Shown here: one piece after another, positions 3,323-13,351 of the stretch
How the letters are laid out: each line of letters starts with the position of its first letter
Numbering within the stretch: the first letter of the stretch is position 1
DNA from: Octopus vulgaris
Lineage: Eukaryota
NCBI GenBank assembly: GCA_951406725.2
Contig: OX597816.1
Location: 123,752,001-123,816,000 of the forward strand
Reading direction: 5' to 3'
Length of the DNA: 64,000 nt
Made by a program: the position numbers and the translations under genes
Notes under the pieces: model-generated
Told to the model about the DNA's origin: nothing
What the model saw: the letters and a program-made list of their open reading frames with translations, nothing else
Database searches by the model: none

Positions 3323-4292
3323 AAATATTATGTACCTTTCATTTTCTGGTAGTACTGCAGCTTACTTTATATGACTCTTAAATTGATTAAAGGCTACTTT
3401 CTAGAACTTTTCTTATTACAACTTACAATAACATCAAGAGAAACTGCAACTTTGGTGACTCATAAACTGGAGAAAAACAAACATAATACAAACCTTTAAA
3501 AAAAAAAAAGAGCTAGACATAAAGAAATAAAATTGTGATTGACAGCAGTTAAAACCAGAGTTAATAGCAACAGTTTTAATCTACTTGTTTGGCCAAATAG
3601 TTTTTAAGCTTTCCATATAGTTTATGACACTGAATTATTGGAAAGAAAATTGGTTTCTTGTTAATTTAATTCACCTAATATTTGTTACAATAATCTTCTT
3701 AAAAAGCTTTTAAAAGGATTAGTGTAACAATTACTGGACTAATTAATAAAAAAAGAAAGCAAATATTACTGTTTTAGTGAGTAGAGAAATACGATTGTTG
3801 AAATAAGCTGATATAGCTAAATTTTGCTTATATTCTATTGATGAAAAATCAATTTGACTGCTGAACAGTGGTAGTGGCTGACAGCCTCTCTTGTGTTATC
3901 TACTAAAGATTGTTCTCTTTAATTTGTTTCTGTGTAGTATCTTCTGGAAACATATGACTGATTATTGTATTATATAGAACTCTACCCCTCTTCCAGCGAT
4001 TAGCAAAACTTGAAATGTATCATCATCTGATAACTATAGCAAGTCTTGTAAAATATAATGCAGTATATTTATCTAAAGAGTTTTCTAAATAACACTGAAG
4101 GTTTTTAACTCTTTTGTTGCCATAATTCTGTTGAATGCATAGCCTTTGTTTCAATTAGACTTTAAAGTAATGAAAAATTTAGGAAAATTACTTTGTCACT
4201 ATTAATCTAGTGTTTAGAATATAAATTAACATTAAATTTTGATGGAAGGTTTTAATTTCGATCATTTTAAAACAAGTTTATATCAGAACAAG

Positions 4293-4932
4293 TGTGAAGG
4301 TGCATGGCATAATGGTTAGAGTATTCAGCTCACAATGATAAGGTTGTGAGTTCAATTCCCAGTAGCATGCGTTCTTTAAAGTTCTTGAACAAGGCACTTT
4401 ATTTAATGTTGCTCCAGTTCACTAAACTGGCAAAAATAAGTAGTACCTGTATTTCAAAGGACTAGCCTTGTCACACACTGTGTTATGCTGAATCTCCCTG
4501 AGAAATACATTAAATGGCACTTGTGCTGGTGGCATGTGAAACATTCGAGCGAGGACGTCACCAGTGCCGCTGGACTGGCTCCTGTGCAGGTGGCACGTAA
4601 AAGCACCATTTGGATGTGGCCGTTGCCAGTACCACCAAACTGGCCCTTGTGCCAGTGGCATGTAAAAGCACCCACTACACTTTCGGAGTGGTTGGCGTTA
4701 GGAAGGGCATCCAGCTGTAGAAACTCTGCCAGATCAGATTGGAGTCTGGTTTGCCAGACATCAGTCAAATCGTCCAACCCATGCTAGCATGGAAAGCGGA
4801 CGTTAAATGATGATGATAATGATGATGATGTGTCTGTGGAGTGCCCAGCCACATACATGTTAATTTCACAAGCAGGTTTTCCGTTGATCGGATCAACTGG
4901 AACCCCTGTTGTTGTAAGAGGAGGGGTGCCAC
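4293..4932 (+). mobile_element. tRNA-derived SINE (family C) interrupted by an RTE 3'-tail insertion
   Basis: Head GTGAAGGTGCATGGCATAATGGTTAG..GAGTTCAATTCC; body resumes at ~4830 (TGTCTGTGGAGTGC..GATCGGATCAACTGGAACCC); uninterrupted homologs at 12590-12900 and 16417-16727. Confidence 0.8.
4514..4829 (+). mobile_element. RTE LINE 3' UTR fragment ending in (GAT)n
   Basis: GTGGCATGTAAAAGCACCC modules, GGTTGGCGTTAGGAAGGGCATCCAGC, GGACGTTAAATGATGATGAT. Confidence 0.8.
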
Positions 4933-10073: not shown

Positions 10074-11094
10074 CACACACTCAAACACATATACACACAT
10101 GCACGCACTTATATGCACATGCACACACAAGCAATGCATGCACACCACACACACACACACACACACACATACACACACTCACTCTCGTCTCGCACATAGA
10201 TGATCTGATTTTTGTGACTGAATCTGGAAGACAGAAAGGGAAAAGAAGCATTTATTGCAAACAAACATCATCTTCAAACACATGATCTGCAGTGAAAACA
10301 TCTGGACTGGATAAAAATATTACTTTGTTAGGAAAGAAGTGAGAGTTGGCAACAGGAAGAGCATCAAGCTGTAGAAAATCTGCTTTGTATTTAACTCATG
10401 AAAGCATGGAAAAGTAGATGTTTAAAATGATGATGATGATAGTGGTGGTGTGATATCTATTAAGAAAGTTTTATTTTTTCTTTCTAATACTGGCTTCAAT
10501 GCAACTAGTCATCATGATATTCAATTTTTATCTTTTAAACTTTATTCTCTCTGAAGTTATTTTTATAATACCTTTTAAAAAAAGCTATATAAATGTACAT
10601 TTTTAATTAATTGCACTTAAGAAATTATATATAACTTTAGAATCAATATTTTTCTTTACTAACAAACAGTGTAATTTAGGTATATATTATCAATTTCTGA
10701 GTGTAAAATTATTTATAAAATTATATAAAATAGTTTTTATTTTCTAAATGAATTTCAAGAGGGAGGTTAACATATGCCTACCTATTCACTGCAAGCCAAT
10801 ATAGGAACCTTTACATATTTGCTTGATCTGCTAGAATAGCAACCAAATCTTCAAATGACATACTTGTGTTTTAATCCTTTAGCATTCAGATTACTCTTAA
10901 TGACCTGTAGGGACATGATATTTTGTTATGCAACCATGATATAGTATAAAGTATATTAAACATTTTTATAAGTCAACACCATGTTCTACTGTGTTAGCAG
11001 TGCTAATACATCAGTTCTTAAATTTATCTCTACAGTATTCTATAGAAATTATTGCCACCACTGATTTTGTTAGAATGAGATTGAAAATGAGTAA

Positions 11095-11144
11095 TGGGCA
11101 TATATAACATTTTTCAGGAGAGTTTACTCCTTCTTCAGTACCTA
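11095..11144 (-). ncRNA. Minimal type I hammerhead ribozyme-like motif (degenerate)
   Basis: - strand UAGGUA-CUGAAGA-AGGAG uaaacu CUCCU-GAAA-AAUGUUAUA-UA-UGCCCA: catalytic boxes with stems I and II intact and stem III weakened. Confidence 0.6.
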
Positions 11145-11436
11145 TTTAACTCCTTAATTATCCTCTGACACATTGCTTAAATAGCCACTATAAACAGTGG
11201 TGTACCGTTATTGGATATACCAATTTTACATATTAAACACATTCCTGACAGCTGGTACATGAATAATAATGAGCTGTAGGGACACAGTATTTATAATGCA
11301 ACCATAATATACTACAAAATATATCAAACATCTTCATAAGTCAACTGTGTTAGCAGTGCTATTACATCACTCGTTAAAGTTAGCTCTACAGCCTCCAAGA
11401 ATGTATTTAATATGTAAAATTGGGATATACAATAAT

Positions 11437-11643
11437 CTTTTCTACTCTAGGCACAGGGCCTGAAGTTTCGAGGGAGGAGGGCAGTTGATTAGATCGACAC
11501 CAGTATGTAACTGGTACTTAAGTTATTGCCCCCGAAAGGATGAAAGTCAACCTCAGCGGAATTTGAACTCAGAATGTAAAGACAGATGAAATACTGCTAA
11601 GCTTTTTGCCTGTCATGCTAACGTTTCTGCCAGCTTGCCACCT
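11437..11643 (-). mobile_element. Meta-like tRNA SINE with 17-bp TSD
   Basis: TSD TTGGGATATACAATAAT at 11420-11436 and 11644-11660; GGAATTTGAACTC (B box, reverse complement). Confidence 0.9.
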
Positions 11644-11723
11644 TTGGGATATACAATAATGCTACATTGCTATATTTAGTGGCTATTTAAGCAATGAGCT
11701 CATGGATGGTTAATGGTTTGGAT

Positions 11724-11772
11724 GAGTGCTGATGAAGGAACAAAAACCCAGAAATATGGCATATATATGCTC
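11724..11772 (+). ncRNA. Minimal type I hammerhead ribozyme-like motif (degenerate)
   Basis: GAGUG-CUGAUGA-aggaacaaaaaccca-GAAA-UAU ggcau AUA-UA-UGCUC; stem II decayed; homologous to the 11095-11144 motif on the opposite strand. Confidence 0.55.
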
Positions 11773-12589
11773 ACTACCAATTTTTCATCTTTGATCTCAT
11801 GGTTTGTTTACATCTGGTTTCTTGGATATAAAACGTCATAACAAAATCAGTGCTGGCTATAATTTCTTTAGAGAATCTGTAGAGATAACCATAATGAGTC
11901 AGATTGCTTTCTCTCAAAAAATGTAATGCTTTGTTTTTCACATTGTTTTGAATCAGTCATGCATATTCTTGTGGCTTTGAGATTTTGATAATACGATTGT
12001 TTATTTCAAGAATGACATTGTAGGTTAGTTGTTAGATCTGGTCAATTTTAACATAAAACAGATAGAACACTTGAGCCAGATATGCCTGGTTTAAATGCCT
12101 AAGAGTTGAATAAGGAAAGCCACATTAGGTAATGTAGGCCTGAAAGCTTGTAAAATTGTGTTACACAGTGTTATTGATAAGATGAAAGTAATAATTTTGC
12201 ATTAATCCAATAACAGTGAAAACTGGAAATTTCTCAGTTAATTAATATAATTTGTTTTAACAATCACTTGTAAGAGTCAGAGAGCATTCGTTGAAGAAGA
12301 TGTTTTACAGCTGGACACCCTTCCTCTAGCTAGCCTCCACTTATTTTCAAACAAGATAATATATTTCCCTATGGCTGGACATGTTTGCGTTCATTATCAC
12401 CATTGTCAGCGACGGTGGTGGCGTTGGCGTCGGCGTTGGCATCGGCATTGCCATCATCATTATCATTGATTTTGTCATCATTGTCATTTAACCTCTGTTC
12501 TCCGTGCTGGCATGGGTTGGGTGGTTTGATGGGAACTGACCAGCTGAAGGGCTGTTCAGGTTCCCTGTCTGTTTGTAAGCTAAAACCAA

Positions 12590-13247
12590 GGCTTAGTGTT
12601 TAGGGTGTTCGGCTCATGAATGTAAGGTCATGAATTCAGTTTCCAGCTGTGCATTGTGGCCTTGAGCAAGAACTTTATTTCACATTGCTCCAGTATACTC
12701 AGCAGGCAAAAATGAGTAGTACCTGTATTTCAAAGGTCCAGTCTTGTCACATTCTGTTCATGCTAAATCTACATGGGTACTATATTAAGGGTACACATGT
12801 CTGTTGAGTGCTCCACTACTTGCATGTTAATTTCACAAGCAGGCTGTTCCATTGATCAGATCAGATGGCACCCTCAATGTTGTAACTGACAGACTGCCAA
12901 TTTTTAATTTGAAGACAAGCAGAAACAACACACACACACACATACATACAACAACAACAACACACACATAAAATAATGAAGGTGGCTAGATGCAATTCAA
13001 AACCAAAAAGGAAATAATTCACAGTCACTGAAATGTGATAAAGGGTACAGGGAGCACCAGCATTGCTAGAAATAAGAATCAAAGAACCCTTTAGACACCA
13101 AAGCACATTTTCTATTTGTTGACAAGAGAGAAAACTCCCCCTATAATTGAGGTGGAGAGGTTATCTCCCCTCACAGTAAATAGAAAATGTGCTTTTGTGG
13201 CTAAATAGTTCTTTGACTCTTATTTCTAGCAATGCTAGTGCTTCCTG
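12590..13247 (+). repeat. Copy 1 of ~660-bp local duplication (family C SINE + spacer + fold-back)
   Basis: Near-identical, colinear with 16417-17073. Confidence 0.9.
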
Positions 13248-13351
13248 TGTCAGTAGCAGTAGCAGCAGTCACAGTGGTGGTGGCAACAATGTTGTCCCTG
13301 TTGGCAGAGCTGTTATTGTTGACGGCAGCGGTGACTACAACAGTGCCATTG

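What the first reader, a model, noticed from the sequence alone, without database searches (positions are those of the whole stretch)
10898..11898. Non-coding insertion with two inverted hammerhead ribozyme cores (retrozyme / Penelope pLTR-like), in a three-level nest
Seen: architecture A-B'-A-B. A (~10901-11035 and ~11271-11391) is a direct repeat with CTGTAG...CTACAG inverted ends. B' (~11024-11243) is the reverse complement of B (~11399-11888, minus the SINE). Each B carries a full minimal hammerhead layout: stem I, CUGA(A/U)GA, stem II, GAAA, short stem III, UA cleavage site (11095-11144 on -, 11724-11772 on +). The unit has no ORF and sits in a TTAA-type MITE with an apparent 12-bp duplication. 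It was later hit by a SINE with a 17-bp TSD. Established: minimal type I hammerheads with short stem III mark Penelope-like pLTRs and non-autonomous retrozymes, and PLE insertions often have inverted/tandem pLTRs. Inference: a member of a possibly uncatalogued cephalopod ribozyme-bearing mobile RNA family with self-cleaving motifs in both polarities.
Basis: partly seen in the sequence, partly recalled or inferred. Interest (0 to 1): 0.72.

Follow-up and report, generated by a model that had tools for sequence, protein, structure and literature searches.

The report
Fossil hammerhead retrozyme, Penelope-style insertion
The two mirror-image hammerhead motifs (RNA shapes predicted to cut themselves) are the two arms of one old, decayed insertion of an abundant 415-base protein-free repeat in what is likely an octopus genome, and its insertion pattern suggests it was copied by a Penelope-type jumping-gene enzyme, a known kind of element.

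Summary
The unit is one 415-nt tandem monomer (B plus reverse-complement A), with a hammerhead on one strand only; the second polarity comes from an inverted arm. The family is dispersed (95 plus 38 loci examined; at least several hundred copies), old (about 84% identical to consensus) and has two subfamilies. Their differences preserve the predicted sense-strand fold (5 compensatory pairs, P=5e-5) but not the antisense fold. The ribozyme is canonical type I, not minimal; both window copies have damaged stems. Copies are 5'-truncated and end at two fixed 3' sites about 117 nt apart. They form head-to-head inversions (43, against 0 tail-to-tail), and half of the inverted ones have 8-14-bp duplications. 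This is the Penelope footprint, so this is likely a non-LTR retrozyme mobilised by a Penelope-type enzyme. No partner element, circular RNA or cleavage was shown. This scan reported the same kind of element and the same two-site reading before, on other octopus-type DNA. New member of a known kind.

The parts
10871..10897 (+). Left piece of the multi-copy host repeat (MITE-like by recall), ending in the left target copy 10886-10897
   Evidence: uninterrupted host copy in L010
10898..11035 (-).
   Evidence: 87.8% to consensus
11036..11266 (-).
   Evidence: 86.0% to consensus, subfamily 1
11076..11163 (-). Type I hammerhead, copy 1: core intact, stem II 5/5 pairs, A-A mismatch next to the core in stem III; predicted cut between 11101 and 11100
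   Evidence: sequence
11267..11391 (-).
   Evidence: 88.0%
11389..11898 (+).
   Evidence: 88.2%, subfamily 1
11420..11660 (.). Later SINE-like insertion 11437-11643 with an exact 17-bp duplication (11420-11436, 11644-11660); very high copy number
11704..11792 (+). Type I hammerhead, copy 2: core intact, stem II reduced to 2 pairs, extra TA in loop III; predicted cut after 11767
   Evidence: sequence
11899..12110 (+). Right target copy (11899-11910, 10 of 12 alike) and the rest of the host repeat (right end approximate)

Best explanation
This is one old insertion of a dispersed 415-nt non-coding tandem repeat that carries a hammerhead motif on one strand, likely a non-LTR retrozyme whose RNA was likely copied into the genome by a Penelope-type reverse transcriptase/endonuclease. 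Shown: the unit, the one-strand hammerhead, two fixed 3' ends, variable 5' ends, head-to-head inversion and target duplications. Inferred mechanism: a master tandem copy was transcribed; the RNA folded compactly and could cut itself into monomers and close into circles. A Penelope-type protein then made a staggered cut about 12 bp wide in the host repeat. Each freed DNA end primed reverse transcription inside the RNA: one at site B (unit 8-14), which ran 1.3 units, and one at site A (unit 300-309), which ran 0.7 unit. The two unfinished copies were joined at their 5' ends. A SINE inserted later. Both ribozymes here are predicted to be weak or dead.
For: Unit and tandem junction. Ends: 41 of 160 segments end at unit 293-316 and 74 of 160 at unit 413-34, against 9 and 14 expected; 27 head-to-head pairs, 0 tail-to-tail; 12 pairs join one A end with one B end, 0 join two B ends. 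Subfamily 2: 17 and 22 of 72 ends; 16 head-to-head, 0 tail-to-tail. Duplications scoring >=8 in 10 of 20 inverted insertions, against 1.8% in shuffled pairings. Both arms belong to the same subfamily in 35 of 35 classifiable pairs, of 43, and copies within a locus are closer than between loci (0.179 vs 0.211 and 0.164 vs 0.193; pairs not independent). RNA fold under selection: between the two subfamily consensuses 5 compensatory and 5 broken pairs among 23 changed, against 0.6 and 15.2 expected (P=5e-5 and <5e-5); the antisense fold is not preserved (10 of 18 broken, P=0.11). Circular consensus -125.1 kcal/mol against -82.1+/-5.2 (z=-8.3). The genome holds intact RT plus GIY-YIG elements. Internal priming at two sites on both strands is shown in vitro for an anole element (PMC11167929).
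Against: No autonomous partner found: no match of the unit in 30 GIY-YIG loci or 10 longer PLE loci, and no PLE protein remnant in 133 unit loci. The distance between the ends (about 117 nt) is much longer than the 30-40-nt tail described for PLEs. Only 6 of 71 direct insertions show a duplication. In subfamily 2 only 3 of 16 inverted pairs are A+B, 7 have neither canonical end, and a third cluster of ends lies at unit 271-280 (9 of 72). The queries bias the end counts (one search used the A part; 26 of 160 5' ends also fall in the B window); six B ends come from one composite repeat and two pairs from one local duplication. Copy-level covariation is weak: RNAalifold found 0 pairs, double changes were no more than shuffled (5 vs 6.7), and the one linked pair is no stronger than unpaired subfamily markers. 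The antisense strand also folds well (z=-7.2). Two of the compensatory changes sit at CpG sites. Cleavage and circles are untested.
Confidence: 0.8

Rival explanations
1. The unit is only the terminal repeat (pLTR) of an extinct Penelope-like element, an internally deleted derivative copied from linear tandem RNA; the hammerhead is a passenger and no circle was ever made.
For: Same insertion footprint. In the anole element the hammerhead is not needed for insertion in vitro (PMC11167929). 5' ends are not enriched at the cut site (5 of 160 and 2 of 72 in the matching 10-nt bin). The subfamily 1 consensus has a 71-codon frame starting at the AUG inside the core, as the anole ORF does. Xenopus retrozymes resemble pLTRs (bioRxiv 10.64898/2026.07.22.740005).
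Against: The junction between units is continuous and no PLE coding remnant was found in 133 loci. The 71-codon frame is not significant (P=0.084). The ribozyme is canonical, as in retrozymes, not the minimal pLTR type. Lack of 5' ends at the cut site also fits a circular template.
Confidence: 0.12
2. A LINE enzyme copied the RNA, and the inversion arose by L1-type twin priming.
For: 5' truncation, inversion and 8-14-bp duplications also follow LINE insertion (established knowledge); LINE-like RT fragments occur in the genome (L134 translation).
Against: No poly(A) or simple-repeat 3' end in the end contexts listed. Twin priming starts the second arm at variable internal sites, whereas here that end is fixed, and the same fixed end is used by direct copies.
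Confidence: 0.04
3. A DNA element (MITE or non-autonomous rolling-circle element) with palindromes; the hammerhead layout is chance and A is a MITE.
For: The unit is rich in inverted repeats and both strands fold; Rfam finds no hammerhead.
Against: All 11 core bases and three stems are in both consensuses. Changes between subfamilies keep the sense fold through G-U pairs but break the antisense fold. One end is fixed and the other ragged, and A continues into B in tandems.
Confidence: 0.04

Closest known systems
Metazoan non-LTR retrozymes (Cervera and de la Pena 2020, PMC7229834; coral, mussel, axolotl)
   Same: Short non-coding tandem unit with one type I hammerhead, low GC, compact predicted circular fold, duplications longer than 4 bp, co-existence with PLEs.
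   Different: 415 nt and mostly 0.5-2.4 units per locus, no long arrays seen; old and decayed; no expression as circles shown. The parts of that paper that I read do not describe inversions or fixed ends ('inverted' 0 hits).
Insertion architecture of endonuclease-bearing Penelope-like elements (Craig et al. 2021, bioRxiv 10.1101/2021.04.23.441226; Frangieh et al. 2024, PMC11167929)
   Same: Partial tandem, 5' truncation, inverted 5'-truncated copy, an extension on one end only, two internal 3' end sites downstream of a hammerhead.
   Different: No ORF; the extension is about 117 nt rather than 30-40 nt; no partner element identified.
[quoted passage not shown]
   Same: Type I topology, near-palindromic stem III that could dimerise, opposite-strand pairs a few hundred bp apart; subfamily 2 has an unpaired base at the foot of stem II.
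   Different: Stem I is 7 bp plus a bulge and a long extension, stem II 4-5 bp, stem III 3 bp beyond the core pair: the canonical layout, not the minimal one (stem I 4-5 bp, stem II 7-8 bp).
Vertebrate non-LTR retrozymes as PLE derivatives (Li et al. 2026, bioRxiv 10.64898/2026.07.22.740005)
   Same: Proposes PLE mobilisation of the same kind of element.
   Different: That work argues from co-occurrence and pLTR homology; its main text has no hit for 'tail', 'initiation' or 'mollus'. Here the support is the insertion footprint, and pLTR homology was not found.

Membership tests
Type I hammerhead ribozyme | Conserved core CUGANGA, GAAA, UH | tested here: met
   Both consensuses; 11 core positions 86-96% conserved, mean 0.91 vs 0.85 overall; intact in 42 of 96 copies, a count raised by the 19 loci picked by a core pattern
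Type I hammerhead ribozyme | Three stems with open stem I, supported by covariation | tested here: met
   84% of cells paired vs 34-53% when slid; compensatory change in stem II and distal stem I between subfamilies; copy-level covariation weak
Type I hammerhead ribozyme | Self-cleavage | not testable with these tools
   Needs in vitro transcription
Minimal PLE-type hammerhead | Stem I 4-5 bp, stem II 7-8 bp, little or no stem III | tested here: not met
   Stem I 7 bp plus extension, stem II 4-5 bp, stem III 3 bp (definition)
Non-LTR retrozyme | Non-coding tandem unit of a few hundred bp, one type I hammerhead per unit | tested here: met
   415 and 411 nt units in partial tandems up to about 2.4 units; longest ATG frame 71 codons, P=0.084
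Non-LTR retrozyme | Dispersed copies, duplications longer than 4 bp, no LTR structure | tested here: met
   Loci on many chromosome-scale contigs; 8-14-bp duplications in 10 of 20 inverted and 6 of 71 direct insertions
Non-LTR retrozyme | Highly self-paired predicted circle | tested here: met
   z=-8.3, 64% paired, on the consensus
Non-LTR retrozyme | Expressed as linear and circular unit-length RNA | tested here: inconclusive
   Only contigs of runs guessed to be RNA were available; the abundant ones trace to one copy read through with its inversion junction
Autonomous Penelope-like element | RT plus GIY-YIG ORF between the repeats | tested here: not met
   No ORF at the site; no tblastn hit of 4 PLE proteins in 133 loci at E 0.05
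PLE-mobilised non-autonomous element | Partial tandem, 5' truncation, inverted 5' copy, two 3' end sites | tested here: met
PLE-mobilised non-autonomous element | Shared sequence with an autonomous partner | tested here: inconclusive
   None in the 40 PLE loci examined, out of 6136 GIY-YIG candidates; older families not sampled

The most novel reading that the evidence does not exclude
The insertions record how animal retrozymes move: a Penelope-type enzyme primes both strands of one staggered cut on a single circular RNA, at two fixed stem-loops about 117 nt apart, so that each inverted insertion has one arm from each site. The whole 415-nt fold, not only the ribozyme, was kept under selection for this. 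A younger, unrelated 468-nt hammerhead family in the same genome shows the same two-end pattern and would be the testable substrate.
Probability: 0.4. Interest if true: 0.65.

Novelty: new member of a known kind. Interest (0 to 1): 0.4.

Why it matters
Which enzyme spreads animal retrozymes is still open: the 2020 paper names PLEs as a strong candidate, and the 2026 preprint argues from co-occurrence and homology. The end map here is footprint evidence for that link and names two start sites that can be tested in vitro. The locus itself is a decayed copy with no sign of function. Six paper searches listed no paper on cephalopod retrozymes; the giant squid paper only counts 235 hammerhead matches. 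Repbase and Dfam could not be searched, so the family may already carry a name there.

Tried and rejected
Rfam scan: no hammerhead family matched. RNAalifold on 38 copies gave no structure because the copies have decayed independently. Search for a partner PLE: nothing. Six loci with shared flanks proved to be one fragment inside a composite repeat with a 49-bp array, not an autonomous element; five of the six were dropped from the consensus and all six from the duplication count. 71-codon frame: not significant. Sequencing runs: no RNA holder listed, and all runs were contigs, so starts, ends, strand and circles could not be read. Young copies: none among the best-scoring matches (maximum 90.6% and 92.0% to consensus). 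One search picked the wrong repeat for the second family and one search stopped with a script error after its first part; both were redone. Whether the window lies in an intron was not determined.

Full report
Observation. The repeats are at the stated places. The SINE-like insert has an exact 17-bp duplication. The whole insertion interrupts a multi-copy host repeat with a 10/12 duplication, and an uninterrupted host copy exists in L010. Contigs of three public runs cover pieces of the locus, and single contigs cross the left, inversion and right junctions. The genome is 2.8 Gb in 227 contigs; 'octopus' is my inference from that size, from recalled repeat types and from earlier scan notes, not a tool result.

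The real unit. Searching the genome with B' gave 1337 candidates, 40 scored. In these loci B runs straight on into the reverse complement of A and then into B again, so the unit is one 415-nt monomer. Read on the minus strand, the window holds a 5'-truncated unit (A2), then a full unit (B' and A1); the plus-strand B is an inverted, 5'-truncated arm joined head-to-head to A2. The four pieces are 86-88% identical to the consensus. Further searches gave 109 loci, 95 non-overlapping, and 38 loci of a second subfamily, 89% identical to the first. Copies average 84-85% identity to their consensus, at most 92%. An exact 25-base core pattern occurs 19 times, 0 times reversed, which implies about 530 subfamily 1 copies as a rough lower bound.

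The ribozyme. Both consensuses have one hammerhead, on the sense strand only: a 7-bp stem I with a bulge and a long extension, CUGAUGA, a 4-5-bp stem II with a 6-nt A-rich loop, GAAA, a 3-bp stem III with a near-palindromic sequence, and an AUA site. By the definitions in PMC4209133 (part 1 of 4 read) this is the canonical type, not the minimal one. The core is intact in 42 of 96 copies, and core plus stems in 13. Both window copies have damaged stems. Rfam does not detect them.

Selection on RNA structure. Among single copies covariation is weak, as expected for dead copies that decayed separately. Between the subfamily consensuses it is clear: of 131 predicted pairs, 23 changed, 5 by compensatory double change and only 5 broken, against 0.6 and 15.2 when the 40 substitutions are placed at random (P=5e-5, P<5e-5). 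With the subfamily 2 fold the counts are 3 and 8 of 25 (P=0.03, P=0.003). The antisense fold keeps the same number of double changes but loses 10 of 18 and 13 of 19 changed pairs (P=0.11, P=0.38), as expected if G-U pairs on a sense RNA matter. The changes span stem II, distal stem I, a small hairpin and the long hairpin in A. The circular consensus folds at z=-8.3, the antisense at z=-7.2.

Insertion footprint. Of 160 segments, 41 end at unit 293-316 and 74 at unit 413-34 (9 and 14 expected); 5' ends are spread, though 26 fall in the second window. There are 27 head-to-head pairs and no tail-to-tail pair: 12 A+B, 0 B+B, 2 A+A (one duplicated locus) and 13 with one arm ending elsewhere, the window among them because of the SINE. 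Subfamily 2 repeats this less cleanly: 17 and 22 of 72 ends, 16 head-to-head and 0 tail-to-tail, 3 A+B, and a third cluster at unit 271-280. Duplications of 8-14 bp flank 10 of 20 inverted and 6 of 71 direct insertions, against 1.8% in shuffled pairings. Arms match in subfamily in all 35 classifiable pairs of 43 and are closer within than between loci. The queries bias these counts, and six B ends come from one composite repeat. An unrelated, younger 468-nt hammerhead family shows the same pattern: 17 and 17 of 40 ends at two sites, 12 head-to-head and 0 tail-to-tail, 5 of the 12 joining one end of each kind.

Mechanism. Partial tandems, an inverted 5'-truncated copy and an extension on one end are the described PLE architecture (bioRxiv 10.1101/2021.04.23.441226, 12 of 20 passages seen). 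An anole PLE protein cuts and extends both strands and starts at two internal RNA sites that bracket the tail (PMC11167929, parts 1-2 of 4 read). I infer the same here, with A as a longer tail. The genome has intact RT plus GIY-YIG elements, but none of the 40 loci examined shares sequence with the unit, and no PLE protein remnant lies in 133 unit loci. Whether the template was a circle or an uncut linear tandem is open: 5' ends are not enriched at the cut site, which fits both.

RNA. Contigs from four runs guessed to be RNA hold family copies. The most abundant letters match all 11 diagnostic positions of one copy, L154, and other contigs carry its inversion junction, so this looks like read-through of an old copy, not a retrozyme circle.

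Comparison. The element fits the non-LTR retrozymes of PMC7229834 (parts 2-4 of 6 and passages read) on unit, ribozyme, fold and duplications; expression as circles is untested. The 2026 preprint (parts 1-3 of 5 and passages read; supplements not seen) proposes a PLE origin. Six searches listed no paper on cephalopod retrozymes; PMC6962438 (two passages seen) counts hammerhead matches in giant squid. Earlier notes of this scan, read after I had reached this view, report the same kind of element and the two-site reading for units of other lengths; none matched this sequence or place.

Verdict. A real but decayed copy of a family that I did not find described, belonging to a known class. Interest 0.4.

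Noticed in passing
L154:1024-1780 (G000:C4, about 145752080-145752830); gene at L194:4822-6453 (+): A subfamily 2 copy with an intact-looking hammerhead (core complete, stem I 7/7, -35.8 kcal/mol local fold) lies in sense about 2.6 kb behind a single-exon cryptochrome/photolyase-family ORF (Pfam PF00875 and PF03441). Abundant contigs from runs guessed to be RNA match it and run across the predicted cut site, so it may sit in the 3' UTR, mostly uncut.
   Followed up: partly
L140:5657-5758 (-); L196-L220: A second, younger hammerhead family (468-nt unit, about 95% identity between copies, 2756 candidates, AUA site) with two fixed 3' ends about 86 nt apart and head-to-head inversions; one copy abuts the tail of a PLE across a TA tract.
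   Followed up: partly
L212:2270-3241: A third tandem unit of 492 nt, 99% identical between its two copies, with a hammerhead-like layout (long stem II, GUA site; read by eye) and an inverted arm.
   Followed up: no
L141-L143 (for example L143:268-3971 +): A young PLE family with an upstream 479-aa ORF (no Pfam match) overlapping a 781-aa RT plus GIY-YIG ORF; its terminal repeat carries a hammerhead-like motif with the U3-A8 core variant (L143 about 4850-4895, read by eye).
   Followed up: partly
L144:1321-2086 and 3718-4483: A second PLE family with a 766-bp inverted repeat at 100% identity, so a very recent inverted insertion.
   Followed up: no
L112, L120, L126, L127, L131, L138: A fragment of the unit (about 271-432) captured in a composite repeat next to a 49-bp tandem array and spread with it.
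   Followed up: partly
L221-L240: U2 snRNA genes share an upstream motif starting 57-61 nt before the start in 18 of 20 loci, a likely proximal promoter element.
   Followed up: partly
window 13047-13248: An 89-nt inverted repeat, 84% complementary, with a 24-nt spacer; probably a MITE.
   Followed up: no
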